A stretch of DNA of 64,000 nt from Candidatus Kaiserbacteria bacterium RIFCSPLOWO2_01_FULL_45_25 (GTDB lineage: Bacteria; Patescibacteriota; Minisyncoccia; Phycocordibacterales; UBA918): assembly GCA_001781415.1 (NCBI GenBank), contig MFLT01000012.1, forward strand, positions 6,485 through 70,484. The letters run 5' to 3'. A program made the translations under genes and the position numbers. Of this stretch, positions 14,320-64,000 are shown piece by piece (the first letter of the stretch is position 1; each line of letters opens with the position of its first letter). Under the pieces are notes generated by a model. The model was not told the DNA's origin. It worked only from the letters and a program-made list of their open reading frames with translations, and made no database searches.

Positions 14320-14322
14320 ATA

Positions 14323-15747
14323 TTAATGTCCAGATCCACTGGTCTTAGTAAAATCTCCCTCATAAATAGTTGGGTCAGCTGGGCCGGTTACTTCTATAGT
14401 ACCCCAAGCCCCTTTGTCTGTACGCATCAGGGCGTGGTCCACCAGAACGTATGTGCCTGGGTAATCGACAGTAAATTCAACTATGGTTGCTCCCCCAGCT
14501 GGGACGTTTGTGGTCTGGACATTCTTAAACTCCGCACCACCAATTGAAGCTTCTGGGTACACGGTATCAAAAATTTCGCCCACTACATGGAAGGAAGAAT
14601 TGTGAACCACTCCACCATTACCAACATACATGCGGATTTTGTCTCCAACCTCGGCCTTCATTTTATTTACTACTCCATCTGGACGACCGTTGAAAGTTAT
14701 ATAAGTTGGATTGCCTAACATCATTTTCTTGGCGTCAAACGCTTGTAAGCCACGACGGCCAATGGCGCCGGTGGTAAATATTTCCCCCTGCATTACATAA
14801 AACTCCTTATCTACTGCTGGTAAGCCATCTTTTGGTTCAACCAAAATCATGCCGTACATGCCGTGCGCCATATGCACAGCCATGTTTGGGGTGGCACAAT
14901 GATAGACAAATAAGCCTGGGTTGAGTGCCTTAAAGGTGAAAGTCTTGGTCTCTCCTGGTGCTACCATAGTCACAGCTCCACCACCACCTGGGCCAGTAGC
15001 AGCATGGAAATCAACGTTGTGGTGATGAAGACTGCTGGCATTATTGGTGATGGTAACGCGAACAATGTCACCTTCTCTTACTCTAAATAATGGACCAGGA
15101 ACGGTGTTATTGAAGGTCCAGTAGTTAAAGGTGATTCCTGGAGCTAGTTCAGACAATACTTCGGTCGTTTCAAGATGTAATTCTCTAATCTGACCTCCCT
15201 CTTCTGGTGCGGCGTCTTCGTCGACAACGGCCAATGTTCCACTAGCCGACATTTCACTTAAGAGTGTGGCAGTGACTGGTGTTGGGTCTAGTACGGTAAT
15301 TGGTGGAGGGACATCACTGGGGTCGCGGGCAATGTCTTCAATGTGTGCAAACTGGTCGATATGTTGAAAGAATGAAATTACATTTTTCATTGGTAAACCA
15401 GGTCCAGAACCAGGGCCAAATGACTCAACATAAACAGGATATTGTAGGGCGTAAAGTCGTCCAACTGAAACAGAGACAAATAAACTAATTCCGATGGCAA
15501 AAAATATCATGGAAATGCCCATGGGTGCGGCTTTTAGTCGCCAGACTAGGCGCAGAGCGAAGAACAGCATAGCTGTGATAGCCATGCCAAGTCCCAGGGC
15601 TTGGATCAAAGAAACCTTTAAAAATTGAAATAATTCAACGCCACCAAGAAATAGAACACCTCCACTAATTATCACTACCCCAACAATAAACATTATTACT
15701 AAAGCCCAGGACAACTTCTCAATATTGTGAAAATCGTGTTCAATCAT
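14323..15747 (-). CDS. nirK: copper-containing nitrite reductase (NirK-type two-domain multicopper oxidase) with N-terminal membrane extension
   Basis: HHHNVDFHAATG (type-2 Cu His) ... VYHCATPNMAVHMAHGMYG (type-1 Cu Cys/His/Met); ~100 aa hydrophobic N-terminus. Confidence 0.8.
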   Translation of the reverse strand: MIEHDFHNIEKLSWALVIMFIVGVVIISGGVLFLGGVELFQFLKVSLIQALGLGMAITAMLFFALRLVWRLKAAPMGISMIFFAIGISLFVSVSVGRLYALQYPVYVESFGPGSGPGLPMKNVISFFQHIDQFAHIEDIARDPSDVPPPITVLDPTPVTATLLSEMSASGTLAVVDEDAAPEEGGQIRELHLETTEVLSELAPGITFNYWTFNNTVPGPLFRVREGDIVRVTITNNASSLHHHNVDFHAATGPGGGGAVTMVAPGETKTFTFKALNPGLFVYHCATPNMAVHMAHGMYGMILVEPKDGLPAVDKEFYVMQGEIFTTGAIGRRGLQAFDAKKMMLGNPTYITFNGRPDGVVNKMKAEVGDKIRMYVGNGGVVHNSSFHVVGEIFDTVYPEASIGGAEFKNVQTTNVPAGGATIVEFTVDYPGTYVLVDHALMRTDKGAWGTIEVTGPADPTIYEGDFTKTSGSGH

Positions 15748-43164: not shown

Positions 43165-45501
43165 CTAAGCTAGCCGTACTTTTTGTTGGTGTCGATTTCG
43201 TAAAGTGCTACTGAGTAATAGTAAAACAAAGCCGAAGGTAATCACTCCAACTGCTGCCACCAGTAAATTAAGTAATACGTTATCTTCGTTTGATTCATTA
43301 TTCAAAGGAGTAGCGGTACTCATGGTGGCAGCCGCTACGAAAGTGTTTTGGGTACGAGCAAAGCGATGTGGCTTACTACTAGCAACTATCTCACCAGTTA
43401 CATCAGTCAGCACTGCCGTTAGTTGGTGCTCGCCAATATCGAAGTTCTGTTCAATAGTGTATGAGAATAAGCCGGTTGACCCAGTTTTTACAATTCCAAC
43501 AATATCGGTAGAGTGCGAGAGTAAGTAAACATATGAATTTGGAATACTACGCCCTTCAACAGTAACAAAGTATTCTTCCTGCTCATTGTTATTGGTGGCC
43601 GACACGAGCGGTGAGACTAAATCAATTTCCACTACCGAATCAAATGTAACCTCTTCAATATTTTTGTTTAAATTAGGTACCACAATCTGGTCAACGACCA
43701 GCGGGTCTGAGTTTCGAATTAATTCAACACTATCAACCACACCGTCATTGTCGGTATCAGCTAAGAGTGGGTTTGTGGCAAAATTGGCTACTTCATCAAA
43801 ATCAGAAAGACCGTCTTGATCAGAATCTTTGGTCGTGAGGTTATTGGTATCTTGTTTAATTTGCTCCTCACTTTCACGCACTTTATCTTTGAGTATTTGA
43901 TAACGTAGGGCCATTACGGTATGGATAGAAGGGACAGCTGACGGCTCTCCAGTCAAACTAGCTACAGTTGAAGCTTGTTTAGTGTAATGGTCAGTCAAAG
44001 CCTGGTTACTTAAGGTAGTTATAAACTGACTCTCAGCCTGTGTTGCCGCTGCGTATTGAAGTAGCAGTGGATTTAATGACTCCACATCTTGCTCCATACT
44101 ACTATCAATTGCAGTCAGTAAGTCTTTATTAGCAAAAAGTAATTCTTCGCTTTCTGTAAACAGTATTTCGGGTTGGGTGGTAAAGAAATCGAAGTAGTGA
44201 CGACGATTATCGTTATCAACTGATGAAGCTAACAAGGCTAGTTCGATCTTTTGAACCAAGACAGCTAAATCAGTCTCGGTGTTTGGTGAAGTTAAGTTTT
44301 CAGTAATCGGTTCAAATTTAACCGCTTCTGTTTTATAGGTTTTTCCAGTCGCAGCAAATGATGCGTATAAATAGTGACTGGCTTGAGGTAGATTAAGAGC
44401 GGATATATTAAAGACCCATTCTCCTTGAACTAGAGTGGCTTGACCAAGATGTAGTGGTTGGCCAGCAGCATAAAGCTGACTGTAGACATCAACCTTACTT
44501 GGCGTAAAGTCTCCGGTTAGAATTTTTACATATGAAGAACCTGACTGATCATGGAGTGTAATGGAAATTGGTGAGAGAGTTCTAGTGGTAGAAACGGGTT
44601 CTGTATCAACTAACTCTTCCTCGTCTGAAGACGTAGAAATTTCATATGTTAAATCAGAATCAGAAGTAATTACTTCATCTTCTTCCGCAGTATCTGCCAG
44701 CACTGTTTCTTCTACTACAGCGGTAGTAACTTCTGGCACAACTGCTTCTGGAAGTTCTTTTAGACTAACTGCAAAAACTGGTCCAGCAAATGTATAGGTC
44801 GTACCGCTCTGTTGAACAGTTGCTTCAATTTTATAGGTAGCTGCAGCTAGGTGTCCGGCCGGTATTAAGAAACGGTATTCTGATTCATTTTGTCGGTCAG
44901 CTGGTTCAAGTATTACTGTATTACCGGTTTCAATGGCGGTCAAAGTTATGGTTGGGTCTGTAGTATTTAAAGCGGTAATTTTAAAATCAGTATCACTGTT
45001 TAGCGTAGCTGGAATTGAGTTAAGAAAAGTTATTTTTGGAGCAGTGGAAGGCAATGCATCATCAGGCACATCCTCACACTCTGACCCACTACAAATTAGC
45101 GCTGCTGGAGTAGTTATAATATTTTTGGCATCAATATAGCTGAAAACAGCAAAAACTGTTCCCAAGAAAATGAAGGCATAACCACCGACTTTAGCAACAC
45201 CAGACATCATACTTGGTACGTATTGTTCGTACCATACAGTATAGAGATGTACCTTTTCCAAAAGCCGGAGACTAGCCTGACCTGGCACAAAGACTACTTC
45301 AGGAGTTGAAGAAACTTTACTGTCAGACGTCTTTTTGGTACGTGCTGTTGTCTTTTTAACGGTAACTTTGGCTATGTCTTTGGCTTTAATTTCAGCCACT
45401 TTTTTGGTTACTGGTTTTTTGGTCACACGTTTAACTGCCGTAACCTTTTTGGCTCGTACAGACTTCTTTACCTCCTCTTTTTTACCAAGAGTAGTTCCCA
45501 T
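43165..45501 (-). CDS. large cell-surface protein with polybasic N-terminus, two TM anchors and TSP3-like Ca-binding D-x-D-x-D-G motifs
   Basis: 778 aa; KK/VTKK-rich N-terminus, TM ~110-130, Thr/Ser/Glu-rich ectodomain, DSDQDGLSDFDE...DTDNDGVVD, C-terminal TM. Confidence 0.6.
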   Translation of the reverse strand: MGTTLGKKEEVKKSVRAKKVTAVKRVTKKPVTKKVAEIKAKDIAKVTVKKTTARTKKTSDSKVSSTPEVVFVPGQASLRLLEKVHLYTVWYEQYVPSMMSGVAKVGGYAFIFLGTVFAVFSYIDAKNIITTPAALICSGSECEDVPDDALPSTAPKITFLNSIPATLNSDTDFKITALNTTDPTITLTAIETGNTVILEPADRQNESEYRFLIPAGHLAAATYKIEATVQQSGTTYTFAGPVFAVSLKELPEAVVPEVTTAVVEETVLADTAEEDEVITSDSDLTYEISTSSDEEELVDTEPVSTTRTLSPISITLHDQSGSSYVKILTGDFTPSKVDVYSQLYAAGQPLHLGQATLVQGEWVFNISALNLPQASHYLYASFAATGKTYKTEAVKFEPITENLTSPNTETDLAVLVQKIELALLASSVDNDNRRHYFDFFTTQPEILFTESEELLFANKDLLTAIDSSMEQDVESLNPLLLQYAAATQAESQFITTLSNQALTDHYTKQASTVASLTGEPSAVPSIHTVMALRYQILKDKVRESEEQIKQDTNNLTTKDSDQDGLSDFDEVANFATNPLLADTDNDGVVDSVELIRNSDPLVVDQIVVPNLNKNIEEVTFDSVVEIDLVSPLVSATNNNEQEEYFVTVEGRSIPNSYVYLLSHSTDIVGIVKTGSTGLFSYTIEQNFDIGEHQLTAVLTDVTGEIVASSKPHRFARTQNTFVAAATMSTATPLNNESNEDNVLLNLLVAAVGVITFGFVLLLLSSTLRNRHQQKVRLA

Positions 45502-53722: not shown

Positions 53723-54117
53723 TACAAAAAGGACTAGGTATATACACTGGGTATACCTAGTCCTCGTGAACGTTATTGAATCAGTTGAATTTCAGCGACC
53801 CTGGCTGCAGTTTCGATTGTTTTGAAACTTTGTGCTGCAGCGGAATTTAATGCTGAAAATGTCTGGCTCAAAAAGTGTGATAGTGCCCAAAGGATTATCA
53901 CAAAACCAATTGCTTTTCGCATACAAAGTGTATTGCGACCCTGAGACCCTTTTCGAAAAGGCCATCATGTAAAATGAAAGGGGCGCGGCAATTGGTAACA
54001 ATGAACTTACCTGCTCATACTAGAGCACATTTTTTGAGTTTATGCAAATCTAGCTTTAGCTGCCTTGATGCTAATTAATTTGTTTTAATTCTTCGCTTTT
54101 CTGCAACTATTTATACA

Positions 54118-54145
54118 TAATTCTATGTATCATTAATGATACATA
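54118..54145. promoter_or_regulatory. palindromic candidate operator TTCTATGTATCAttaaTGATACATAGAA
   Basis: perfect 12-bp arms; second copy of palindrome seen at 33410..33437. Confidence 0.4.
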
Positions 54146-54399
54146 GAAAATAAGTCTATTTTGAGCCTTTTTAATTATCAAAGGAGTTCCAGTTCCAGGG
54201 ATTTGTCTGGAAGGCCGCTTCAGCTGACAGCTCCCTGCGAAGTCTAATCTGATTAAGCGCTTGTATAAGATTATTACTTATAGTGGTAGCTTCAAGTACC
54301 TGGCGGACCACATACCTTAGTTTCTCCCTGCGGGGTCGAAACTAAGGTTGTGTCTGCCTAAGCAAAACATAATCGCGCTCTGCGCTCTTTGTTTCTGCT

Positions 54400-54948
54400 T
54401 TATTTAGAGTTAATTATGCTCTCTACCACAGTTTTAATGTCCGCTTTGTTGGCTACGCCACGGAAATGTTCAACTACTTCCCCTTTACGGTTGTAAATTA
54501 CTACTTCAGGCATGGCGTAGCCTCCTACTGTCAGATAAAACGCATCGCGAGGATCAAGCACCATCACTACTCCAGTTATATTTTGTAGTGTCTGTAAGAA
54601 ACGAGCAGCTTGCTCTTTGGATTCTTTACGATTAATCGCCATGAAGACCACTTCCTCATCTGAAAATTCACTACTGAGCTCAGAAAGTGTATTTAGGTCC
54701 GCTGTAGAAAACGGAGACCATGATGCCCAAGTAGCTACCACCAAAGTCCTTCCTAAGTACTGCTCTAATGACACTGGATTACCAAGTAAGTCAGTGTAAG
54801 GCGCTTCCCCTTCTGGGTTAGAGAAAAGTGCCACCGTGTCTTCGTTAATTTTATTGTTGCTTTTACTGACGATAAAGTAAGTAGCTACTGCCCCAAGGGC
54901 CAATAGTAAAAACAGCCCGCCCAATACTTTTTTTTGATAACTACTCAT
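54400..54948 (-). CDS. membrane-anchored thioredoxin-fold (TlpA/ResA-like) protein lacking the CxxC motif
   Basis: N-terminal TM, ...LVVATWASWSPFS... at the position of WCxxC; 182 aa. Confidence 0.55.
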   Translation of the reverse strand: MSSYQKKVLGGLFLLLALGAVATYFIVSKSNNKINEDTVALFSNPEGEAPYTDLLGNPVSLEQYLGRTLVVATWASWSPFSTADLNTLSELSSEFSDEEVVFMAINRKESKEQAARFLQTLQNITGVVMVLDPRDAFYLTVGGYAMPEVVIYNRKGEVVEHFRGVANKADIKTVVESIINSK

Positions 54949-54957
54949 GACTTTGAC

Positions 54958-55440
54958 TTACCCCTTAATAAATAACTCAAACTCTTCTGGTCTTTCTCCC
55001 GGAGCGGCCGGAATTAGATTTAGTTCAACCACTCTACCCATGAAAGTAGCCGTTACTGTAGCTTCAGGTGAAGCGGCGACTGACTCTGTGATAAACCGCT
55101 GTGTAGTCATAACTTGCGCACACATCTCTGAGTTATTGATGACATTAAAATTAAGGACGATTTGCTCTGGATATGATTCTCGAACCGTTGTATCAACCTC
55201 AAGCAAGTCACATGGTGTTGGAAGAACAAGTTCACCAGCAAAAGTATGTTCACCATCAATGATGTAATGCTTGGCATCAATTCGAGTAATGCCTGGGTAG
55301 AGCACTACTTCTTCTTCAACTGGAGTTTCTACGACTGGTGTTTGCACCATCTCAGCTCGCTTCAAGTAGGCAAACACAAACATCCCTACGATGATAAGTA
55401 GAAAAAAACTTACTACTAGAAGTATTGTTCGCTTGTCCAT
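54958..55440 (-). CDS. hypothetical membrane-anchored protein
   Basis: 160 aa, N-terminal TM, 10-nt gap to next gene. Confidence 0.5.
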   Translation of the reverse strand: MDKRTILLVVSFFLLIIVGMFVFAYLKRAEMVQTPVVETPVEEEVVLYPGITRIDAKHYIIDGEHTFAGELVLPTPCDLLEVDTTVRESYPEQIVLNFNVINNSEMCAQVMTTQRFITESVAASPEATVTATFMGRVVELNLIPAAPGERPEEFELFIKG

Positions 55441-55480
55441 AGTTAAAATATTATGCTTGTAACTATTGTTAGTATATCAC

Positions 55481-57127
55481 TTATTCACGCTTCGCATCAT
55501 CTCCAACGTAGACGGTCAAAGTTTTATCACTAACGTCGTTTGTTTCGTACGTTGAAATAGGAGCATTATTTAAGACTGAACTGAGACGAAGAGCTTCGGT
55601 CTCTTCTCCAGCCTTATAGATAACAACCGTACGTTTTTGTGGACTAGTGGTTTCTGACTTTAAGGTGGTTACCTTATAACCAAGAGCTTCAAGTTTGAGT
55701 CTCACCTCAGCTCCAAGACCAGGTACACCACTCCGATTAATGACCGCCACCGGTGGCAGGTGTTCACTGACAGTGAACTGACTTAGCTTGCGCTCGTTAC
55801 GGAGCTGATTATAAATAATCTCTTCCGATGTCAAAGTCACATTACTATCAGCATTTTCATACACCACTTCGTAATTACGTTGATTAGTGGTAGCGCTTCC
55901 GACATACCAGGCAATAAAACCAATAAATATTCCTATCACTAGAATACCAATAAAGAATAGTTGGTACTTTTTAATAAACACCAGAATTTGACGCAAATAA
56001 CCCAGGGCATCTTTGGCTGTTGCCAAGTGAAGTTTTAAATCAACATAACCTCTGGTCACAGGCGTATGAAGCTTAACCGCTTTTTGGGCACGGAATTTTT
56101 CTACCACCAAGCCGTTCTTTTTGGCTGCCTGATATTCTTCTACATTAATACCCGCCATCACCAGCATGTGTCGTACATATAGACGAACAAACCAACTAAT
56201 TAGTGCCCCGAAGAGTACTAATCCGAGCAAAATACCAAATAATAATTTGAATGGAATCACCCAAAACTCGGTTTGCATGGAAGCGAATTGCCGCGATTCA
56301 CTACCATAAGCTAAAGTGGCTACTGCGGTGTAGCGGCCAATATCAGCCATTGACCATTCTCCTTTCCAAGAAAAAGTAAATTTACGAATACTCTCGGGCA
56401 AAACGTTACCAAACTGTGAAGCTTGATTAATTGGGATTAAACCACGCTCTTCACCCCACATGTTGGTGATTTTAATTTCTCCCTGTGGTTGCAGGTGAAC
56501 ATTACCTTTGTTTTCAAAACGAAGATCAAAAGTTACTTCTGGAGATCCGAGGAAACGATCAGTGGTGGTAAATTCACGAATGGTACCTTCTTCAATAATG
56601 TCTCCAGCTACCCTAGCAAAGAAAAGTGAAGTGACCATCTGTGAAGTTTGAACCTTCGCTTGTCCAGCTTCAGGAGTTGGCGGTTTGGTGCCAACAAGAA
56701 TTGCTGCGAAGTGTCCACCTGGACTAGCATCAAATGGTACACGAACTGAAAAAGGAATTTCTAGTGATTGTTCACGTGGGACTATGATGGCACCACGTTC
56801 GATTGTGAACCACTCGGCCAAAGTAACCCCTTCACCCTCACCTGGAGTAACCGGCATAAACCTACCTTCTCCACTCTCACCGCGGGGCACAAAGTTCACC
56901 ACATCAACATAAACAGTTAGGTCGTAATCGTTTACGTTAATAACCCGAAGATTACTACGCCACTCCTGTCCAGGATTTACGGACATATCAAAGAGTGACG
57001 GCGAGATGCTCAGTGTAAGCGACTCTTGAGCCTGAACCGCGTTTGCACCAAAGACAACAAAACCAAGGACTAGTACTCCAAAAAATTTAAGCCCCGCCCT
57101 TGAGATTGATGTCATGATCGTATTCAT
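55481..57127 (-). CDS. surface protein paralog B (signal peptide, two beta-rich domains, TM, long C-terminal region)
   Basis: start reassigned to MNTIMTSISRAGLKFFGVLVL... (ATG 57127..57125); paralogous to 57087..58094 (HFAAILVGTK / HAFVGFAAG; NKGNVHLQPQGEIKITN / NTGDVPLQPTGDVIIYD). Confidence 0.6.
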   Translation of the reverse strand: MNTIMTSISRAGLKFFGVLVLGFVVFGANAVQAQESLTLSISPSLFDMSVNPGQEWRSNLRVINVNDYDLTVYVDVVNFVPRGESGEGRFMPVTPGEGEGVTLAEWFTIERGAIIVPREQSLEIPFSVRVPFDASPGGHFAAILVGTKPPTPEAGQAKVQTSQMVTSLFFARVAGDIIEEGTIREFTTTDRFLGSPEVTFDLRFENKGNVHLQPQGEIKITNMWGEERGLIPINQASQFGNVLPESIRKFTFSWKGEWSMADIGRYTAVATLAYGSESRQFASMQTEFWVIPFKLLFGILLGLVLFGALISWFVRLYVRHMLVMAGINVEEYQAAKKNGLVVEKFRAQKAVKLHTPVTRGYVDLKLHLATAKDALGYLRQILVFIKKYQLFFIGILVIGIFIGFIAWYVGSATTNQRNYEVVYENADSNVTLTSEEIIYNQLRNERKLSQFTVSEHLPPVAVINRSGVPGLGAEVRLKLEALGYKVTTLKSETTSPQKRTVVIYKAGEETEALRLSSVLNNAPISTYETNDVSDKTLTVYVGDDAKRE

Positions 57128-58094
57128 TGTGCTCACGTTTCTTACCGACAAACATTGGAACATCTTGTGGCTCTGCCTCTTCAACATAACTTGAACGTTT
57201 AAGATTTCGACGGAGCAAGATTACCAAAATGGTTAAAACTATGGCTAATAATACCATGATAATGACCAAATAGAACCAAGGTATTGAATAGTAAAAATTA
57301 GTGTCATAAAGAGCTGCCCGGTTTTGTACTCCGTATTCTAGTGACAAATAAGCCTTATTTTTACCTAACCGGTTCATAAAAGGTAGCGGTTTGGTATAAG
57401 TGACCTTCTCGCCAGGGGCGATAATAGTCTTTGACTCGTCCTCAAGAGAAACTGAGGTGAGCTCTCGGCCGCGAGAATCATAAATAATCACGTCGCCGGT
57501 CGGTTGAAGCGGCACATCACCAGTGTTTTCAAGAATATAAGTTATCTGGCCTTTGTCGGGCGAAATACTGAAGCGGTCGGTAGTAAATGACACCAGACGA
57601 AGAAACTCTTCTTGTTTAGAACCAACCACAATGCGAATCACAGCACCCATTCCCTGCCCCTCGAGCACCTTGGCTTGAGCAATATCACGATTTGATCCAG
57701 CAGCAAAGCCGACAAAAGCGTGGTAAGTACCAGGCGGTGCCTTTTGATTGACTCTAATTGTGAGTGGAACTTCGGTTGTTTCTCCCGCTGGTAATTCAAT
57801 TCGACCGCGGGTAATTTCAATCCAACTTGTAACAGCGGTGGTTCGCTCACTCATGGAAGCTGGTACAAAACTTTTTATTTCACTCTCGTCACCAACAGTA
57901 ATTTCGTTTACTGAGGCGTACAGCCTGACTGGCCGGCTGTCAAAGTTGGTTATGGTAAGAGTTTTGGTAAAAGTGTCGTGTGGCTCAGCCTCGATATCAA
58001 TAATCATTGGTGAAACTGAGTATTCAGCCTGTACCGAAGCAAACGGCAGAACCAGGAGGACAAAGATAAGCGCAAAGAAATTTTTTGAATTCAT
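57087..58094 (-). CDS. surface protein paralog A (signal peptide + C-terminal TM anchor; CscA/DUF916-like topology)
   Basis: 335 aa; MNSKNFFALIFVLLVLPFASVQA signal peptide; C-terminal LVIIMVLLAIVLTILVILL TM + basic tail. Confidence 0.6.
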   Translation of the reverse strand: MNSKNFFALIFVLLVLPFASVQAEYSVSPMIIDIEAEPHDTFTKTLTITNFDSRPVRLYASVNEITVGDESEIKSFVPASMSERTTAVTSWIEITRGRIELPAGETTEVPLTIRVNQKAPPGTYHAFVGFAAGSNRDIAQAKVLEGQGMGAVIRIVVGSKQEEFLRLVSFTTDRFSISPDKGQITYILENTGDVPLQPTGDVIIYDSRGRELTSVSLEDESKTIIAPGEKVTYTKPLPFMNRLGKNKAYLSLEYGVQNRAALYDTNFYYSIPWFYLVIIMVLLAIVLTILVILLRRNLKRSSYVEEAEPQDVPMFVGKKREHNEYDHDINLKGGA

Positions 58095-58100
58095 AGGTAA

Positions 58101-61100
58101 CTAATACGATGGTACGGCTAAGTAAACAATTTCGGTTTCATATGATCCGGCTGGCTGAAGCTGATTAACCTTTATTCGATACACTATATCATGGGTATCA
58201 GAACTTGGAATTCCACTATACATCACCTCAACTGGAGTGGTTTCCAGTGCCGCATAAGTGTCTGTGGCCGCAAAGCGAGTAGAGCCATTTTTGAGAGTTG
58301 GATCAGTCACATGATAACCGAAGCAGCCAGTTGAAGTTGGAGCACAGGCGTCCGCCCAACTATCAGGAACCAAGTTAGTGGCCGCAATTGGCGGGATAAA
58401 TACCCCAGCCTGACTTTGAAGTTGCTGACGAGCAAACTTAAATAACTGATAGCCCTCAGTAGCATTACTTTCTACTGTGACACGATGAGCACCGATATAC
58501 TCAGTGCCGAGATTAAGAAAGCCAAACCCAATACCAGTTGGAGAAGACGGGACGTCGGTTATTACTCCTGCTGTTGAAGTGCCTGAGGGTAGCCCACTTA
58601 GGGAGAAGTTCAAATACGGCCCTTCAATCACGAGCGACGGAAATGTATTACTGTCGACATGATTTACCGGAGCGTCGTTTGACACATCATATAAGCGGAA
58701 ATAATACACGGCCTGCACTCGTGCTGCCACCTGTCTGATAGTGAAGCTGTGCTCCTTGGTGGTACTGGCATAATGAATGTCGCCAGTGGCGTACTCTCCT
58801 GATGAGTTGTGAACTCCACAACCAAATCCAGCCCCAGCCACACAGCTATCACTACCAGTAAGTACACTAGTGGTGATGGTTTGATTATCTGGAGAAGACC
58901 CTTCGGCGTAGCACCACAGTGATCCCTCCAAGCAGCTAGAAGTGGCCGTCACATCATAGGCGGTGGCGAAAGTTGGATCCTCTGAATATTGAAGTTTGAA
59001 TTTTATATTGTCACCCTGAACGTTTCGTCGCTCAGTCACGGCAATGCGGAGGGCCAATGTATCATTGTTGGCGATATTAGTTGGAGCCACCTCCTCAAGA
59101 GCCAGTGGCGTCACTGGTGTTTCATTGTTTATGTCACTATACCAACGCCAAACGGTAGTGGCTGGGGTGTAACCAGCGGTTCTAATTTGTGGGTAGTTGT
59201 TATATCCATCAAGCGGAGTACCGTCACTTTTTACGGCTCTAAAACAATAAGTTGATTGTGGGATGGCGCCGTTATGCTCCAGGTGCCAATCGTATTCAAT
59301 ATCATTTCCATCAAGAGTTGGGTACGGATTGGCTACTGTAGGATTTTGTTGAGCCAACGAACCAGAAATATCAGCTACCGAAATTAACAAATCTCCAGGA
59401 TTTGGGGGATTGGTAGACAATGATTGTCCATCGGTGGTAGTGGCTGAGGCAAAACCACGCCAGACTGTACCACTACTAATGGCTCCAACATCAAACCACG
59501 AACCACTATCTATAGCCGAACAAGTAGTAGCGCGCACTCCATATTGTAATTTAAAGTTAACAAACCCAGCGGGCATATTGGCGTTACTAGTTCTGACCGT
59601 CATTCTGATTCGTACCCGATCGCCAGTACCAAGTGGTTCGTCTGCAATGGTAATTGAGGTATTCTCTCCTAGACCAGCCAGATTTGGTGGCCAGGCTTCC
59701 GTTGGAGTTAGTTCACCATTATTGACATAAAAACGATAATAATTCTGACGAAGTGACAAATCAGCCACTGGCCATTCAATCAGTTCTACTCGATACGTCA
59801 TGTTGGTACCAGTGTTACTACGCCAAATTGTGTAAGTAGAGGTACTAGTGAGCCCAAAGCCCGCCAATGGTCTTGGGTAGGTAGTGTTGGCTCCAGCTGC
59901 TCTAGTATTGGCCATAATGGAGGTATTATTTACCGAAGCCACTGGCGTTGGTAAGTTTACAGTCAGAGTTAACGGCCCAGTTCCACCGTTAGTGGCACCA
60001 TTGGAGCGCTGCACATTCATTTCACCTAAACCACTCTGAATATTTTCGACTACCCAAGCTACGGAAGTTTGTTCAACTGCCACACTGGCGCCTGTTTCTA
60101 GTTGGAAAGAAATTGCCCCAATACTAGACAGCCATACTTCGTGACCAAAATGCACGACGTTGGTGGTAGCACCCATCCGTTTCTGAACATGCAAAAAAGT
60201 CCGAGCCAAGCTATTCACAGCGGTGATACTTTCGGTTTCAGTGACACCGGCAGCAGCGTAACTATGTTCTGCTCGTTGTATCTGCCAATTAGTACCCACA
60301 AATTCAACTACCGCATAACTAACATTAGCAATACTGGCACCAGAGGCACCACGTCTAAATACAGGCGACTGAGTCACACTGTCCCACTCGGATGTCACTA
60401 GACCAGCGTAAAAGTTTCGAGAAGCATTACGGTTTTCGACGCCAGTCACAAAGACCACCACGTCACTATCGTTAGTTATTCCAGTCACCGGTGTTCCAGT
60501 AGCAACAACAGTAGCTGTCGTATAAGAGACAGTACCAACCGAACGTACCCTTATCTCGTTGTCAGTATCTTGCTTTCCGATAAACTCAACAATCTCCCAC
60601 TCTACTCTGGTGTTTGAGGTGGCAGCTGGAGGCCTGGTAATGGTAAAGCTGGTAAGTAAATTCTCTGGATTTGATATGTAAGCAGTGACATCGTCAGCGT
60701 TTTGTCCGGCAGTGGCTGAGGTGTTACCCGCACCCGTCTGGTGTGAATTTGTGATGCGCACAAAAGCCAGGCTTGAACTGGCCGGAGCTACATAGTCTGT
60801 ACCAGCCACCAAAGTTGCACTGGTGCCTGAGACTTGGGTTATGCCGCGCTGAATTTTGAAGTCACGTTTGGGAGCAGTAGTTATTTCTGCATAGTTAGTG
60901 TACACAGACAACGGTGTACCATTAGCCGACACTCTAAAACAATAAGTTGTCCCGTATGAGGTAAATTCAGTCGAAGTTATACTGTATTCAAGTTCAACAT
61001 AGTCATTGGTAGGAATACTTGTGCTGGCTGATAGGGATTCAGTGTCACGCACGCCACCATTGGGAGTAATAAAGGTACCAGGTGAATTACTGACTCCTCC

Positions 61101-64000
61101 ACTACCTACAGCCAAGTTGGTGGTATCGCTACCATTAGTCAAAAAAGTAGAGTCAAACATATCCCAACCATCAAGTGATGAATCAACGTCTGTCCAAACT
61201 GTAGCGGTATCACAAGTAGTAATACGTGGTGCGTACTCTAGCCTAAATCTATTCTCAGGACCAGTTACACTTCCAGTGTTTGTAACCGCTAAGCGTAGAC
61301 GAATTGGCGACTCAAGACTAAAGTCAGACAGAAGGGTGTTTTCGGTGCCACCAGTGGCTGAAGTAGCTGCTGTTTCGTTCCCATTATCATTTCGCCAATG
61401 GTAGTTTGTTTGAGTAAGAATTGGACCAACCACCGTTGTCTCTCCAGAGATCATCACTTGACCAGATGGTCCAATACTAGCCCCACCACTAGCCGCCACG
61501 TCGGTGGCTGGAGAATTAATAGCTAGACTGATGGTATCACCGTTATTGGCGTCAGCCGAAACGTCATAGACCACATACAAACAAAGTGTGGCAGTGGTTG
61601 AACTTATGACTGAGTCTGTAAAAATCGCGCTGCCGGCAGTATCGGTAAACCCTCCAGTGACGGTACTACCATACTGACTTTCGGTACCAGCATAAGTCTC
61701 CGATGAGCAGTTATAAGGAGCACTGCTATCTAAATCATAATACAACCTAATATTATCCAGCCCAGCCACTTCATCAATTGTGCCAAGTTCAGTGACCGTA
61801 ACTGAAGTTATGTTACGTGATGAGGAGTTTTCAATAATGGCAAAACTACCGCCGGCATAAACATCACTAGCACCAACGGTGGCATTGGTAGTAAGAGTAC
61901 CCAGACTGGATACAGTAACATCCGAATTGATAGTAACAGTTGGGTAATTTGAATACACACTCAGAGGCTGACCCCCGCCAGTGATACGGAAACAATAGGT
62001 CAATCCCTCCTCGGCTGTACTTGAAGCCATAATAGAAAATTCTGCTTCAAAAAAGTCATTCTGATTAAGGGTCAGTGACGGTGTGGTGTTGTTACTGTCA
62101 CGCAGGGCTCCGTTAGTTGTTAGGTAGTTTGTACTTGGCAAATTTGTCAGTCCGCCGTTACCAACAGTTATGTCGGTAGTATCTGAGCCATCAGTAATAT
62201 TGGACGAGTCAGCCATTTGCCACACGGCACTCACATCACCCACTGTCGACCAAGTGACAATATCTGTACAACTTGGTGCCGCCACACCATACTCAAGACT
62301 ATAAGTAGTAGGTACGCTACTAGTTGAACCTTGATTGGCAATACCAAGACGGAGTCTAATTAATTCCTCTTTTTGTAATGACGTTAATGGAGTATTCTCG
62401 GTGCCACCAGTCGCTGAAGTGGCTCCACTTTCAGAACCATCATCATTACGCCAATGATAAGCAAATTGAGTAAGGCTGGAATCCACTACAGTGGTCGTAC
62501 CAGGAAGTAGCACTGCCGATGAAGGAAACACTTCCAGTCCTCCCGAAACGAGAATGTCGTTAACTGGATCAGCTACCAAAATTTCTATAGTGTCTCCGTC
62601 TTGGGCATTGCTATTGATATCAAACACTACATAAAAACACATTGTCTGAGTTGTATTGATTGAAACTGGTGACGCTGTAAACGAAGCCACACCATCAGCA
62701 CCAGAAAATCCACCTGAGACAGTACCGCCAAATTGTGAATCCCCTCCCGCATAACTTTCAGAACTACAATCGTAGGGAGAGGAAGTATCAAGATCATAAA
62801 ACAGACGCACATTACTGACCGAGCCCTGGGCATCTAGAGTTCCATTTTCTGAAATCACAATTGATGAGACGGTCTGAGCCGACTTGGCATCCAAACTAAA
62901 TGAACCGCCAATATACTGATCAGTCACAGAATTTCTTACTTGACTAACTTGAGTGCCAAGACCGGTGAGAATAATCTGCGGGCCAATGTCAGCTACTGTC
63001 TCTCCATACAAGTCCAAAGCTCCTGATGCGTTATACCAGGTTGTATACAGTCTTTCATAACCCATGAGGTTCATATCAACGCCGTACAAATCACCAGCAG
63101 TAGTTGTGAGTGGGCCAGCTTCAGCATCCCAGGTATTCATATTGTCAGTTGAACGTCTATAGTAAACTCGTCCGGTGGAAGCTGTAGCGAGGGTGTCACG
63201 AATGGAATAGGCAGCGTATATATCACCATTGTTAAGATCACGCCCTACAGCTACCTGATGTAGTCCGCGCCCAGCGATGTTGGTAAACACGTTTGCGGTA
63301 GCAGACCATGAACCAGCAGAAAATATAGCGGTGCGGATATCATGATCAGCAGTCACAAACTCATTGTTATCAGCAGCGTAAACCAAATAAATATCACCGC
63401 TAGCAATATCGACAGTTGCAGCCATACCTACGTCATAAGTGGCATTTCCAGCTGAGGCGGCGTCAATAGTATTAAAACCAGACCAAGAAGAACCATTCCA
63501 AGTACTGGAACGGATAACATGTGTGGTACTACGATTGATGAGCAAAACACTTCCACTTGGTAGTGGCATAAGCAAAGACCAACTGTTAGCGTTGCCTTGG
63601 GGGGCTGTACCAGTTGCAGACCAGTTACCACTAACGCCACAACTGGTGGAGCAGCGTCGGATATGAGTACCATTACTGTCGTCTATGTTTATATAAACAG
63701 TGCCGTCAGTTCCTTTAGTGATTGAGACAACGTTTGTGCCCGCTGCGTAGGTAGTGGCGACCCCGGGCATAGTACTGATACTAGTGGACACAAGTAATGT
63801 GTCGGTAGAAGTGTCAAGGTTATTGTAAAAAATCTCATCGTTACCAGTATCAAAAGTAGCAATGTGAATTATGGTACCAGTATCACCAGGAGTCCACTGG
63901 TCGTACCAAACCGATACTGCCACACAGTCAGTCTGACTATCGACCCGCACTCTTGCCCCCCAAGTATTTCCCCCATCTGTAGTCTTGCTATAAACACACA
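58101..64000 (-). CDS. giant secreted repeat protein (>=1965 aa, N-terminus beyond window) with BNR/Asp-box motifs and >=4 tandem ~190-aa modules
   Basis: frame open to window edge (track 'start' at 63950 is GTG, upstream codons ...YSKTTDGGNTWGAR have no stop); Asp-box-like SKTTDGGNTW, STDNMNTW; modules marked by Y[HR]WRNDxG...IRLR...FRLEY...YCFR...PL..YxNYP. Confidence 0.7.
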   Translation of the reverse strand, partial: CVYSKTTDGGNTWGARVRVDSQTDCVAVSVWYDQWTPGDTGTIIHIATFDTGNDEIFYNNLDTSTDTLLVSTSISTMPGVATTYAAGTNVVSITKGTDGTVYINIDDSNGTHIRRCSTSCGVSGNWSATGTAPQGNANSWSLLMPLPSGSVLLINRSTTHVIRSSTWNGSSWSGFNTIDAASAGNATYDVGMAATVDIASGDIYLVYAADNNEFVTADHDIRTAIFSAGSWSATANVFTNIAGRGLHQVAVGRDLNNGDIYAAYSIRDTLATASTGRVYYRRSTDNMNTWDAEAGPLTTTAGDLYGVDMNLMGYERLYTTWYNASGALDLYGETVADIGPQIILTGLGTQVSQVRNSVTDQYIGGSFSLDAKSAQTVSSIVISENGTLDAQGSVSNVRLFYDLDTSSPYDCSSESYAGGDSQFGGTVSGGFSGADGVASFTASPVSINTTQTMCFYVVFDINSNAQDGDTIEILVADPVNDILVSGGLEVFPSSAVLLPGTTTVVDSSLTQFAYHWRNDDGSESGATSATGGTENTPLTSLQKEELIRLRLGIANQGSTSSVPTTYSLEYGVAAPSCTDIVTWSTVGDVSAVWQMADSSNITDGSDTTDITVGNGGLTNLPSTNYLTTNGALRDSNNTTPSLTLNQNDFFEAEFSIMASSTAEEGLTYCFRITGGGQPLSVYSNYPTVTINSDVTVSSLGTLTTNATVGASDVYAGGSFAIIENSSSRNITSVTVTELGTIDEVAGLDNIRLYYDLDSSAPYNCSSETYAGTESQYGSTVTGGFTDTAGSAIFTDSVISSTTATLCLYVVYDVSADANNGDTISLAINSPATDVAASGGASIGPSGQVMISGETTVVGPILTQTNYHWRNDNGNETAATSATGGTENTLLSDFSLESPIRLRLAVTNTGSVTGPENRFRLEYAPRITTCDTATVWTDVDSSLDGWDMFDSTFLTNGSDTTNLAVGSGGVSNSPGTFITPNGGVRDTESLSASTSIPTNDYVELEYSITSTEFTSYGTTYCFRVSANGTPLSVYTNYAEITTAPKRDFKIQRGITQVSGTSATLVAGTDYVAPASSSLAFVRITNSHQTGAGNTSATAGQNADDVTAYISNPENLLTSFTITRPPAATSNTRVEWEIVEFIGKQDTDNEIRVRSVGTVSYTTATVVATGTPVTGITNDSDVVVFVTGVENRNASRNFYAGLVTSEWDSVTQSPVFRRGASGASIANVSYAVVEFVGTNWQIQRAEHSYAAAGVTETESITAVNSLARTFLHVQKRMGATTNVVHFGHEVWLSSIGAISFQLETGASVAVEQTSVAWVVENIQSGLGEMNVQRSNGATNGGTGPLTLTVNLPTPVASVNNTSIMANTRAAGANTTYPRPLAGFGLTSTSTYTIWRSNTGTNMTYRVELIEWPVADLSLRQNYYRFYVNNGELTPTEAWPPNLAGLGENTSITIADEPLGTGDRVRIRMTVRTSNANMPAGFVNFKLQYGVRATTCSAIDSGSWFDVGAISSGTVWRGFASATTTDGQSLSTNPPNPGDLLISVADISGSLAQQNPTVANPYPTLDGNDIEYDWHLEHNGAIPQSTYCFRAVKSDGTPLDGYNNYPQIRTAGYTPATTVWRWYSDINNETPVTPLALEEVAPTNIANNDTLALRIAVTERRNVQGDNIKFKLQYSEDPTFATAYDVTATSSCLEGSLWCYAEGSSPDNQTITTSVLTGSDSCVAGAGFGCGVHNSSGEYATGDIHYASTTKEHSFTIRQVAARVQAVYYFRLYDVSNDAPVNHVDSNTFPSLVIEGPYLNFSLSGLPSGTSTAGVITDVPSSPTGIGFGFLNLGTEYIGAHRVTVESNATEGYQLFKFARQQLQSQAGVFIPPIAATNLVPDSWADACAPTSTGCFGYHVTDPTLKNGSTRFAATDTYAALETTPVEVMYSGIPSSDTHDIVYRIKVNQLQPAGSYETEIVYLAVPSY

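What the first reader, a model, noticed from the sequence alone, without database searches (positions are those of the whole stretch)
54400..64000. Five-gene cell-surface locus: giant BNR/repeat protein, two paralogous membrane-anchored proteins, small membrane protein, cysteine-less thioredoxin-fold protein
The locus is a tightly packed, co-directional minus-strand operon (gaps of -30 to +10 nt). It ends in a terminator hairpin at 53735..53770.

The first gene encodes a secreted protein of at least 1965 aa that runs off the window. It is followed by two clear paralogs, each with a signal peptide, two beta-rich domains and a C-terminal TM anchor. This topology recalls CscA/DUF916-DUF3324 proteins of Firmicute WxL/Csc surface complexes.

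Next come a 160-aa TM-anchored protein and a TlpA-like thioredoxin-fold protein whose CxxC is replaced (WASWSP).

The composition suggests a dedicated surface assembly, possibly an adhesion or host/substrate-binding complex with its own anchoring partners. No named system matches it.
Basis: partly seen in the sequence, partly recalled or inferred. Interest (0 to 1): 0.7.

Follow-up and report, generated by a model that had tools for sequence, protein, structure and literature searches.

The report
Pam-like pilus locus with giant subunit
A conserved operon of an ultrasmall CPR (Paceibacteria-type) bacterium encodes a 2,054-residue surface protein whose pilin-like tail is probably clipped onto two membrane-anchored, chaperone-like proteins. 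It looks like a giant-cargo variant of the donor-strand 'Pam' pilus system first described in a 2026 preprint.

Summary
The five genes exist as described. The window is identical to part of GCA_001781805.1, a ~0.96 Mb CPR genome. The giant protein is 2,054 aa in full.

The two paralogs model as two Ig-like sandwiches plus a C-terminal TM helix. Their best solved-structure matches are E. faecium WxLIP, then pilus chaperones (CfaA, EcpB) and RbmA. The giant's last 179 aa form a conserved domain whose best fold matches are donor-strand pilins, not WxL.

The two families are tightly linked. In 80 metagenome loci, 62 of 67 runs of paralog-family genes directly follow an ORF ending in this domain. 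All 88 full domain hits sit at the extreme C-terminus.

This anatomy matches the Pam pilus system of Ca. Mycosynbacter amalyticus (bioRxiv 10.64898/2026.03.03.709456): pilins with a truncated Ig-like C-terminal domain, TM-anchored PapD-like chaperones and an RbmA-like tether.

The window carries a variant, and 37 of 42 related species share its layout. It has a single giant "pilin" (BNR-like propeller, repeated modules, pilin unit), two anchors (one with LytR_C), a 160-aa membrane protein and a TlpA-like protein. That protein lost its CxxC in this lineage.

Direct sequence comparison with the M. amalyticus proteins was not possible. Verdict: new variant of a just-described kind, moderately interesting.

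The parts
58101..64000 (-). Giant secreted protein: C-terminal 1,965 of 2,054 aa lie in the window; the start codon is about 265 nt beyond the window edge
   Evidence: ORF and frame check. Full gene at L003:3830-9994. Length is conserved at about 2,050-2,070 aa in most of 42 related species. It contains 20 Cys.
62991..64000 (-). BNR/sialidase-like beta-propeller region of the giant protein (residues ~50-425; cut by the window edge)
   Evidence: BNR_2 E 1.7e-5 and BNR_4 E 0.035, both below Pfam cut-offs. Asp-box-like motifs YSKTTDGGNTW and RRSTDNMNTW are visible in the translation.
60873..62987 (-). Two tandem 352-aa units (residues 427-778 and 779-1131), each made of an X module followed by a Y module
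   Evidence: Self-BLAST of sequence chunks gives 43-47% identity, E down to 1.5e-54.
59667..60872 (-). Middle domain of the giant protein (residues 1132-1533), function unknown
   Evidence: No Pfam, PDB or PHROG hit. It is 49% identical to the giant protein of metagenome locus L070.
58686..59666 (-). Y-type modules 3 and 4 (residues ~1534-1697 and ~1702-1860). Y4 corresponds to the N-terminal domain of short two-domain pilin-like proteins.
   Evidence: Internal repeats. Y4 is 38-44% identical to residues ~90-255 of 437-451-aa proteins that precede paralog-family genes in other loci (E 1e-31 to 1e-37).
58104..58640 (-). C-terminal 179-aa domain (CTD), pilin-like beta-sandwich ending ...AGSYETEIVYLAVPSY; proposed acceptor of a donor strand
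57087..58094 (-). Paralog A (335 aa): signal peptide, two Ig-like domains, C-terminal TM helix; proposed membrane-anchored chaperone or anchor (PamD-like, WxLIP-like)
   Evidence: Model pLDDT 84. Foldseek: WxLIP at 9e-12, then CfaA and EcpB chaperones and RbmA. TM at residues 276-294. The family has 5,454 cluster representatives.
55481..57127 (-). Paralog B (544-548 aa as called; the ORF extends to 57187): signal peptide, two Ig-like domains, TM, cytoplasmic loop, second TM, extracytoplasmic LytR_C domain; proposed tether
   Evidence: 26% identical to paralog A. A1 and A4 profile hits. TM segments at 296-314 and 391-409 of the 548-aa form. Orthologs at 45-47% identity always occupy the second position after the CTD protein.
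55496..55753 (-). LytR_C domain of paralog B
   Evidence: PF13399 E 9e-12, 46.2 bits, above the 22.2 cut-off.
54958..55440 (-). 160-aa protein: N-terminal TM anchor plus a ~115-aa domain with two conserved Cys; function unknown
   Evidence: No family hit. Not related to the A1 or A2 families by hhalign. Present in 39 of the 42 clade genomes and in L108.
54400..54948 (-). Membrane-anchored TlpA/ResA-like thioredoxin-fold protein without cysteines (WASWSPFS)
   Evidence: Redoxin E 3.6e-13; DsbE and ResA profiles at 1e-10 to 1e-11 but far below their cut-offs. 8 of 41 orthologs keep WCPxC and 33 have lost both Cys. 6 of 7 homologs in distant loci keep WCxxC.
53730..53764 (-). Terminator-like hairpin with U-run; assignment to this operon is uncertain
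   Evidence: 13-bp perfect arms. dG -19.8 kcal/mol, z -4.4. It lies 636 nt after the Trx-like stop codon and directly after a 49-codon ORF.

Best explanation
The locus encodes a Paceibacteria-type variant of the CPR 'Pam' donor-strand pilus machinery, in which the only pilin-like subunit is a 2,054-aa protein.

Proposed mechanism:
1. The giant protein is exported by Sec.
2. Its last ~350 residues (Y4 module plus CTD) are the equivalent of a complete two-domain Pam-type pilin.
3. The CTD is a truncated Ig-like domain. It is stabilised and held at the cell surface by a beta-strand donated by the ectodomain of paralog A (chaperone-like) and/or paralog B (tether-like). Both are fixed in the cytoplasmic membrane by TM helices.
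4. Paralog B's extracytoplasmic LytR_C domain may add a link to the cell wall.
5. The N-terminal ~1,700 residues (BNR-like propeller and repeated modules) project outward as the functional part, probably for binding a host or substrate.
6. The membrane-anchored thioredoxin-fold protein descends from a TlpA/ResA-like oxidoreductase that accompanies these loci, whose pilin-like proteins carry conserved cysteine pairs. In this lineage it has lost both catalytic cysteines, so it can only act non-catalytically, or not at all.

Shown: the domain anatomy, the fold classes, the paralogy, the family-level gene linkage, the conservation and the loss of CxxC.

Inferred: strand donation, which paralog does what, anchoring rather than polymerisation, and the binding role of the N-terminal part.
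For: 1. Paralog A models confidently as two Ig-like domains plus a TM helix. It matches WxLIP, the pilus chaperones CfaA and EcpB, and RbmA. These are the same fold classes that the preprint assigns to PamC/PamD (PapD/FimC-like with a C-terminal TM helix) and PamR (RbmA-like with a TM helix).
3. Gene linkage: 62 of 67 runs of paralog-family genes are immediately preceded by an ORF ending in the CTD, and 88 of 88 CTDs are C-terminal. This holds across loci where the paralog family is only 24-60% identical.
4. Proteins of 437-451 aa that occupy the giant's position in other loci are homologous to its Y4 module plus CTD (38-48% identity). L070 has a giant like this one inside a C-W-W-C-W locus.
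5. The commonest architecture, C-W-W-C-W, equals the order PamE-PamD-PamR-PamB-PamC deduced from consecutive GenBank ids. PamD is 37.4 kDa, close to the size expected for the 335-aa paralog A.
6. Named homologs are almost all Patescibacteria. CTD proteins of ~490 aa come from Microgenomatia, one of the two classes named in the preprint.
7. Conserved cysteine pairs occur in the CTD and in Pam pilins. Homologous Trx-like genes with an intact CxxC accompany distant loci.
8. The layout C-W-W-p160-Trx is kept in 37 of 42 species.
Against: - No sequence of M. amalyticus PamA-T could be obtained, so homology to the named proteins is untested. The link rests on architecture, fold class, gene order and taxon.
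- The preprint reports Pam mainly in Saccharimonadia and Microgenomatia, not in Paceibacteria.
- No complex prediction could be run, so strand donation by paralog A or B is not shown.
- The two-Ig-domain fold is common, and WxLIP, CfaA and RbmA score similarly, so the fold search does not discriminate between them.
- The whole ~20-kb region, including housekeeping genes (TGT, FKBP, UvrB), is collinear in the clade. Synteny within the clade alone proves little.
- ATP synthase genes, which the preprint describes as typical neighbours, were not seen here or in the loci sampled.
- A giant protein of conserved length could equally be a structural envelope component.
Confidence: 0.65

Rival explanations
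1. The giant protein is a polymerising pilin. Because it keeps the Y4-linker-CTD unit of short pilins, copies could join head to tail by donor-strand exchange into a filament decorated with 1,700-residue side arms. Paralog A would act as chaperone and paralog B as terminator and tether, as proposed for PamD and PamR.
For: The Y4 module plus CTD is 38-48% identical to short two-domain proteins in the same operon position. These have the architecture of polymerising Pam pilins. The CTD fold class is that of donor-strand pilins. There are two different anchor or chaperone paralogs, as expected for separate chaperone and terminator roles.
Against: There is no evidence that a subunit with a 1,700-aa N-terminal extension can pack into such a filament. 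By the gene-order mapping, the position corresponds to PamE, a minor pilin of low abundance. No other pilin gene lies in the locus or in the rest of the window.
Confidence: 0.2
2. The locus is a true, distant member of the Firmicute WxL/Csc system. The paralogs would be WxLIP (CscA) proteins, and the giant protein a 'large WxL' protein bound non-covalently to peptidoglycan and to WxLIP.
For: The top three PDB fold matches of paralog A are WxLIP, including the complex with a long WxL protein. PF06030 is the most consistent weak Pfam hit and always covers the first domain. The layout is the same as described for WxL clusters: a large multi-domain protein with a C-terminal anchoring domain, next to a protein of SP, two Ig domains and a TM helix. 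The CTD ends in a Y-x(5)-Y-L-x-V-P motif that resembles the second WxL motif.
Confidence: 0.08
3. The giant protein is a core envelope component, such as an S-layer-like coat or a wall-associated enzyme with a sialidase-like propeller. Its neighbours would be unrelated envelope proteins that stay adjacent only because the genomes of this clade are collinear.
For: The whole ~20-kb region, including TGT, FKBP, PGA_cap and UvrB, is collinear in 42 species. The giant's length is unusually constant. There is weak BNR similarity.
Against: The CTD-to-paralog adjacency holds far outside the collinear clade and in different operon architectures (62 of 67). The CTD also sits on small and on unrelated large proteins, which is the behaviour of an anchoring or assembly module. 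No S-layer (SLH) or enzyme family hit was found.
Confidence: 0.07

Closest known systems
Pam pilus system of CPR bacteria (PamA/B/E/T pilins, PamC/D chaperones, PamR tether; Ca. Mycosynbacter amalyticus; Troman et al., bioRxiv 10.64898/2026.03.03.709456)
   Same: - Secreted proteins ending in a truncated Ig-like CTD of the donor-strand class.
- Two-Ig-domain PapD/RbmA-like proteins with a C-terminal TM helix encoded next to them.
- No usher and no sortase.
- Conserved cysteine pairs.
- Restricted to CPR.
- The C-W-W(-C-W) gene order fits PamE-D-R(-B-C).
   Different: - There is a single CTD protein, and it is 2,054 aa, with a BNR-like propeller and repeated modules in front of the pilin unit.
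- No PamA/B/T-like small pilins are present.
- The second anchor carries an extra TM helix and a LytR_C domain.
- A 160-aa membrane protein and a Cys-less thioredoxin-fold protein belong to the block.
- The host lineage is Paceibacteria, not Saccharimonadia or Microgenomatia.
- No ATP synthase genes were seen nearby.
- Homology to the named proteins was not tested directly.
WxL/Csc surface clusters of Bacilli (large and small WxL proteins plus WxLIP = DUF916-DUF3324-TM; PMC9772566, PMC10599100; PDB 9i1y, 9i25)
   Same: A monoderm envelope. A large multi-domain protein whose C-terminal domain is the attachment module. A partner with a signal peptide, two Ig-like domains and a TM helix that inserts a strand into that module. 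Paralog A's best PDB matches are WxLIP, and PF06030 is its most consistent weak hit.
   Different: The C-terminal domain is not a WxL domain by sequence or by fold search. There are no W-x-L motifs, no small WxL protein and no LPXTG partner. All Pfam scores are below threshold. The phylum is different.
Chaperone-usher pili of Gram-negative bacteria (PapD/FimC/CfaA chaperones; Pap/Fim/CFA-I/Csu pilins; two-domain tip adhesins such as FimH and PapG)
   Same: An incomplete Ig-like pilin domain paired with a two-Ig-domain chaperone-like protein. The giant protein has the logic of a tip adhesin, with a functional N-terminal part and a C-terminal pilin domain.
   Different: There is no outer membrane and no usher. 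The chaperone-like proteins are membrane-anchored rather than soluble in a periplasm. No PapD Pfam hits were found. The pilin unit has two domains.
TlpA/ResA/DsbE extracytoplasmic thiol-disulfide oxidoreductases
   Same: An N-terminal membrane anchor and a thioredoxin fold with the W-x-x-W-C-x-x-C context. Relatives encoded in homologous loci keep CxxC.
   Different: The window protein has WASWSPFS and no cysteine at all, so it cannot exchange disulfides. Its scores are far below the equivalog cut-offs.

Membership tests
Pam pilus system (CPR) | A pilin-like secreted protein ending in a truncated Ig-like C-terminal domain that accepts a donor strand | tested here: met
Pam pilus system (CPR) | PapD/FimC-like two-domain chaperones carrying a C-terminal TM helix (PamC/PamD), encoded in the same operon | tested here: met
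   The paralog A model has two Ig-like domains plus helix 273-302. Foldseek hits include the CfaA and EcpB chaperones. TM segment confirmed. The gene lies 6 nt downstream of the CTD protein.
Pam pilus system (CPR) | An RbmA-like tether with a TM helix and an extra N-terminal strand (PamR) | tested here: inconclusive
   RbmA appears repeatedly among paralog A's matches. Paralog B occupies the position expected for PamR. Paralog B was not modelled, and an extra N-terminal strand could not be assessed.
Pam pilus system (CPR) | Sequence or structural homology to M. amalyticus PamA/B/E/T and PamC/D/R | not testable with these tools
   The sequences (WP_2607632xx, QHN43268-74) and PDB entries 25PZ and 25QA are not in the accessible collections. 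PDB sequence searches found nothing. The only link is indirect: the CTD profile hits ~490-aa Microgenomatia proteins, the class in which the preprint reports PamA homologs.
Pam pilus system (CPR) | Several small pilins (a major pilin plus a tip pilin) that polymerise into a filament | tested here: not met
   Only one CTD-bearing ORF occurs in the locus and in the whole window, and in 37 of 42 related genomes. Related metagenome loci do have two or three.
Pam pilus system (CPR) | Restricted to CPR/Patescibacteria | tested here: met
   All 42 genome loci are labelled as Patescibacteria lineages. Named homologs are Patescibacteria apart from two records labelled only 'bacterium' and one labelled Pseudomonadales.
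WxL/Csc cluster (Bacilli) | A WxLIP protein: DUF916 (PF06030) plus DUF3324 (PF11797) plus a TM helix | tested here: inconclusive
   The fold and topology fit, and WxLIP is the top PDB match. PF06030 hits are only sub-threshold (best E 3.2e-5 in 133 sequences). PF11797 was never hit. There is no profile hit to WxLIP chains.
WxL/Csc cluster (Bacilli) | A C-terminal WxL domain (PF13731, two W-x-L motifs) on a large and on a small protein | tested here: not met
   No WxL Pfam hit in the giant protein or in 25 CTD homologs, even at E<=10. The motifs are G-Y-Q-L/V and V-Y-L/I, not W-x-L. The WxL chain of 9i25 is absent from the top fold matches. No small CTD protein is present in this locus.
Chaperone-usher pili | An outer-membrane usher and a soluble periplasmic PapD-family chaperone (PF00345/PF02753) | tested here: not met
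   No usher-like or PapD Pfam hits among the locus proteins or 133 family members. The chaperone-like proteins are TM-anchored.
TlpA/ResA/DsbE thiol-disulfide oxidoreductases | A catalytic CxxC motif in a thioredoxin fold, with a membrane anchor | tested here: not met
   The fold and the anchor are present. The motif is WASWSPFS and the protein has zero cysteines.
BNR/sialidase beta-propeller | Repeated Asp-box motifs and a Pfam BNR match above threshold | tested here: inconclusive
   BNR_2 scores 24.7 bits against a cut-off of 31.4 (E 1.7e-5), and BNR_4 has E 0.035. Two Asp-box-like motifs are visible. This region was not modelled.

The most novel reading that the evidence does not exclude
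The two-Ig-domain, TM-anchored proteins of this locus would be homologous both to the Pam chaperone and tether proteins of CPR bacteria and to Firmicute WxLIP (DUF916). This would unite WxL clusters, Pam pili and, more distantly, chaperone-usher pili as one ancient 'strand-donating anchor' principle for fixing proteins to monoderm envelopes.

In Paceibacteria this machinery would have been reduced to a single-subunit form. It would hold one clade-wide conserved 2,054-aa protein at the surface, helped by a thioredoxin-fold protein that has given up redox chemistry for a binding or holdase role.
Probability: 0.3. Interest if true: 0.7.

Novelty: new variant of a known kind. Interest (0 to 1): 0.55.

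Why it matters
CPR/Patescibacteria are a very large, mostly uncultured part of bacterial diversity. They live attached to host cells, so their surface machinery is central to their biology, yet it is almost entirely unannotated.

If this reading is right, four things follow:
- The donor-strand Pam machinery, just discovered in one cultivated Saccharibacterium, would extend to Paceibacteria. The anchor family alone has about 5,450 clusters at 50% identity.
- The machinery can carry cargo ranging from ~350-aa pilins to proteins of more than 2,000 aa.
- A simple sequence rule emerges that could annotate thousands of 'hypothetical' CPR proteins: a C-terminal ~180-aa domain followed by genes for proteins with a signal peptide, two Ig domains and a TM helix.
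- A structural bridge to the WxL/WxLIP systems of lactic acid bacteria and enterococci becomes visible.

The repeated loss of CxxC in the linked thioredoxin-fold protein is a clean natural case for studying redox-dead thioredoxin folds.

Tried and rejected
- NCBIfam, PHROGs and PDB sequence searches of the giant protein, paralog A and the 160-aa protein gave nothing. For paralog B only chance-level PDB matches appeared, E 0.8-1.4.
- Profiles of the paralog family (A1, A3) and of the CTD (A2) against PDB sequences gave no WxLIP, WxL or Pam hit. A PamB-sized CTD protein from L059 also found nothing.
- The last homology search aimed to reach M. amalyticus PamA through ~490-aa CTD proteins. It returned only Microgenomatia and unnamed proteins.
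- hhalign found no relation between the 160-aa protein and the CTD or paralog families.
- An Rfam search of the 680-nt spacer downstream of the operon gave only chance-level hits.
- ATP synthase genes, reported as Pam neighbours, were not found among the ORFs sampled in the window or in five related loci.
- The first attempt to scan metagenomes with the broad alignment A3 failed for lack of a conserved stretch. The narrower alignment A4 worked.
Paralog B, the 160-aa protein, the repeat modules and any complex could therefore not be modelled.

Full report
**Origin and observation.** The window is identical, over the 10 kb compared, to part of contig MFMM01000001.1 of assembly GCA_001781805.1. 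This is a ~0.96-Mb genome from the Rifle groundwater CPR data set, and the same locus is seen in several other metagenomes. Related loci come only from genomes labelled Paceibacteria, Parcubacteria, Kaiserbacteria, Nomurabacteria or Patescibacteria.

The giant ORF has no stop up to the window edge. In the full contig it is 2,054 aa with an N-terminal hydrophobic signal or anchor. Spacings between the genes are +6, -41/-29, +40 and +9 nt.

The hairpin is real: arms at 53730-53742 and 53752-53764, dG -19.8 kcal/mol, z -4.4, followed by a U-run. It lies 636 nt beyond the last stop codon and directly after a 49-codon ORF. Four further co-directional genes lie upstream, outside the window. Among them are a cohesin-like plus dockerin protein (Dockerin_1 E 4e-5) and a protein with a weak Big_13 match.

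**The two paralogs.** They share 26% identity over 314 residues (E 3e-21). An AlphaFold model of paralog A, built with 50 homologs, has mean pLDDT 84. It shows a signal peptide, two Ig-like beta-sandwiches and a C-terminal TM helix.

- Foldseek against the PDB ranks E. faecium WxLIP first. This includes the complex with a long WxL protein (9i25_C, 9i1y; E 9e-12 to 2e-11).
- Close behind come a Vpr fibril, the class-5 and common-pilus chaperones CfaA and EcpB, and the matrix protein RbmA.
- At sequence level, PF06030 (WxLIP_PGBD, formerly DUF916) is the most frequent Pfam family. It is found in 24 of 50 close members and 14 of 83 distant members (best E 3.2e-5) and always covers the first domain. 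Every score is below the gathering cut-off, and PF11797 never appears.
- Profiles of the family do not find WxLIP among PDB sequences.
- Paralog B adds a cytoplasmic loop, a second TM helix and an extracytoplasmic LytR_C domain (E 9e-12).
- The family is large: 5,454 cluster representatives at E<=1e-3 in the 50%-identity library.

**The giant protein.** Self-comparison divides it into seven parts:

1. A signal or anchor segment.
2. A BNR-like region, residues ~50-425 (BNR_2 E 1.7e-5, below cut-off).
3. Two tandem 352-aa units, 43-47% identical.
4. A 400-aa middle domain.
5. Two more Y-type modules.
6. A 179-aa C-terminal domain (CTD).

The CTD is well conserved among 25 homologs. It has two invariant cysteines and a C-terminal ...AG-Y-x-T-x-IVY(L/I)AVP-x-(Y/F) strand. 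It has no Pfam hit, even at E<=10, in any of the 25 sequences.

- Csu, Fim, Pap, CFA/I, CS and CupE pilins;
- TasA;
- archaeal bundling pili, threads and cannulae.

The WxL chain of 9i25 is not among the top 50 or 60 matches of either search. The CTD therefore belongs to the pilin-like, strand-complemented class of Ig-like domains. It is not demonstrably a WxL domain.

**Linkage of the two families.** Within 42 species-level genomes the whole ~20-kb region is collinear, including TGT, FKBP, PGA_cap and UvrB. Clade-internal synteny alone is therefore weak evidence.

I then collected 80 metagenome loci with a more distant branch of the paralog family. All ORFs were scanned with profiles of the paralog family, the CTD, the 160-aa protein and the Trx-like protein.

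- Of 67 runs of paralog-family genes with enough upstream sequence, 62 are directly preceded (<400 nt) by an ORF that ends in the CTD.
- All 88 complete CTD hits end within five residues of the stop codon.
- CTD proteins come in small (~350-460 aa), medium (~490-610 aa) and giant (>1,400 to >2,265 aa) sizes.
- Recurrent architectures are C-W, C-W-W, C-W-W-C-W (often followed by a Big_13/dockerin protein and a Trx-like protein) and C-C-C-W-W-W. Here C is a CTD protein and W is a paralog-family protein.
- The 437-451-aa proteins in the first position are homologous to the giant's Y4 module plus CTD (38-48% identity). The first and second W genes are orthologous to paralogs A and B (31-34% and 45-47% identity). 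L070 has a giant like this one in a C-W-W-C-W locus.
- In the window's own clade, 37 of 42 genomes have exactly C(giant)-W-W-p160-Trx. Giants of about 2,050-2,070 aa are the most common.
- No other CTD or paralog-family gene exists in the 64-kb window.

**Comparison with known systems.** A literature search found a preprint, Troman et al., bioRxiv 10.64898/2026.03.03.709456, version of June 2026. It describes cryo-EM structures of 'Pam' pili from the Saccharibacterium Ca. Mycosynbacter amalyticus.

- PamC and PamD are PapD/FimC-like chaperones with a C-terminal TM helix.
- PamR is an RbmA-like two-domain protein with a TM helix, proposed to terminate and tether the filament.
- The pilins carry paired cysteines.
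- The system is reported as CPR-specific, mainly in Saccharimonadia and Microgenomatia.
- The consecutive GenBank ids in its Table S1 give the order W-PamB-PamR-PamD-PamE-PamA-PamT. Read in the other direction this contains C-W-W-C-W (PamE-D-R-B-C), the commonest architecture found here.
- PamD (37.4 kDa) is close to the size expected for the 335-aa paralog A.
- The ~490-aa CTD proteins hit by the CTD profile belong to Microgenomatia.
- The preprint does not mention WxL, LytR, thioredoxin, giant proteins or Paceibacteria.

The M. amalyticus sequences and PDB entries 25PZ and 25QA are not in the accessible collections. Direct homology therefore remains untested.

**Most likely mechanism.** The locus is best read as a Pam-type donor-strand system reduced to one subunit.

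- The giant protein's C-terminal pilin unit is complemented by a strand from paralog A and/or B, and so is held at the membrane.
- Paralog B's LytR_C domain may add wall contact.
- The N-terminal 1,700 residues are the exposed functional part.

The fold classes, the linkage and the conservation are shown. Strand donation, the division of labour between the paralogs, and anchoring versus polymerisation are inferred.

The main rival is that the giant protein itself polymerises through its retained linker and CTD. Membership in the WxL/Csc family fails the WxL-domain test, although the system plausibly works like one. The consistent PF06030 signal also leaves open a real, distant homology between WxLIP and the Pam-type anchors.

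**The thioredoxin-fold protein.** It is membrane-anchored and matches the Redoxin, ResA and DsbE profiles. It has WASWSPFS and no cysteine.

- Among 41 orthologs, 8 keep WCPxC and 33 have lost both cysteines.
- In seven homologs from distant C-W-W-C-W loci, six have WCxxC.

The ancestral state is therefore an active TlpA-like oxidoreductase linked to these loci, which fits the conserved cysteine pairs in the CTD and in Pam pilins. The window's lineage has a redox-dead but still conserved copy. The 160-aa protein has an N-terminal TM segment and two conserved cysteines. It has no detectable relatives outside this group of loci and is unrelated to the other families.

**Verdict.** It should be re-filed as a giant-cargo, Paceibacteria-type variant of the recently described Pam donor-strand system.

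What is new here relative to the preprint:
- the extension to Paceibacteria;
- the giant subunit, conserved across a clade;
- the LytR_C-bearing anchor;
- the linked thioredoxin-fold gene and its loss of CxxC;
- the structural bridge to WxLIP.

Noticed in passing
window 53723-54399: There is an unusually long (~680 nt) non-coding spacer between the Trx-like gene and the AI-2E-type transporter gene, in an otherwise tightly packed genome. It holds a perfect 28-nt palindrome (54121-54148), an 11-bp stem (54314-54324 / 54338-54348) 52 nt after the stop codon, and a 49-codon ORF with a hydrophobic N-terminus (53773-53922) just before the terminator hairpin. Rfam finds nothing credible.
   Followed up: partly
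L006:7943-8044, corresponding to L003:13675-13946 (about window 54149-54420): A strain variant of the same species carries a ~270-nt deletion/replacement. It removes the last ~20 nt of the Trx-like gene and part of the spacer, and no Trx-like gene was called there. This may be a sign that the Cys-less protein is dispensable.
   Followed up: partly
window 3344-6166 (- strand): The leucyl-tRNA synthetase (940 aa) appears to carry a NUDIX domain (E 6.2e-9, residues 396-508) inserted just after its editing domain.
   Followed up: no
L003:1184-1933 (upstream of the window); L059:16467-18188, L068:9777-11564, L070:10990-12729, L073:15537-17294, L100:14309-16315, L102:12197-14089: Dockerin-bearing proteins recur beside these loci. 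In the window's genome it is a 249-aa cohesin-like plus dockerin protein. In distant loci it is a protein of ~575-670 aa that ends in a dockerin-like segment, shown to be Big_13 plus dockerin in L073. It sits after the last anchor gene, just before the Trx-like gene in the loci that have one. This suggests a further, cohesin-dockerin layer of the surface assembly.
   Followed up: partly
L059:15632-16474 and L100:12698-13558: A formylglycine-generating-enzyme-like (FGE-sulfatase) protein is encoded directly after the anchor genes in two distant loci (E 1e-14 to 1e-15). It may be a modifying enzyme for the pilin-like proteins. It is absent from the window locus.
   Followed up: no
L038:1-9954: One related genome has two giant CTD proteins in tandem (>=1,216 and 2,061 aa) before the two anchor genes.
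   Followed up: no
L059:3-6776, L065:3-5480, L073:753-6344: A different giant ORF (1,826 to more than 2,258 aa) lies a few genes upstream of the C-W-W-C-W block. The L073 copy has a Gly_rich_2 domain. These ORFs have no CTD and no similarity to the window's giant protein. They may be the 'tail fibre-like protein' mentioned in the preprint.
   Followed up: no
window 25277-27844 and 43165-45501 (- strand): Two further large, probably surface proteins lie in the window: 855 aa with DUF11 and 778 aa with a bacterial TSP3 repeat. Neither carries the CTD.
   Followed up: no
window 12673-15747 (- strand): An FAD-linked oxidase (548 aa) and a multicopper-oxidase-like protein (474 aa) are adjacent. This is unexpected for a CPR genome with reduced metabolism.
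   Followed up: no
Supplementary Table 1 of bioRxiv 10.64898/2026.03.03.709456: The table labels QHN42421.1 (119 kDa) as PamC. The gene next to pamB is QHN43268.1 (36.5 kDa), whose size fits a two-Ig-domain chaperone. The label looks like an error, and I used gene order rather than the label.
   Followed up: no
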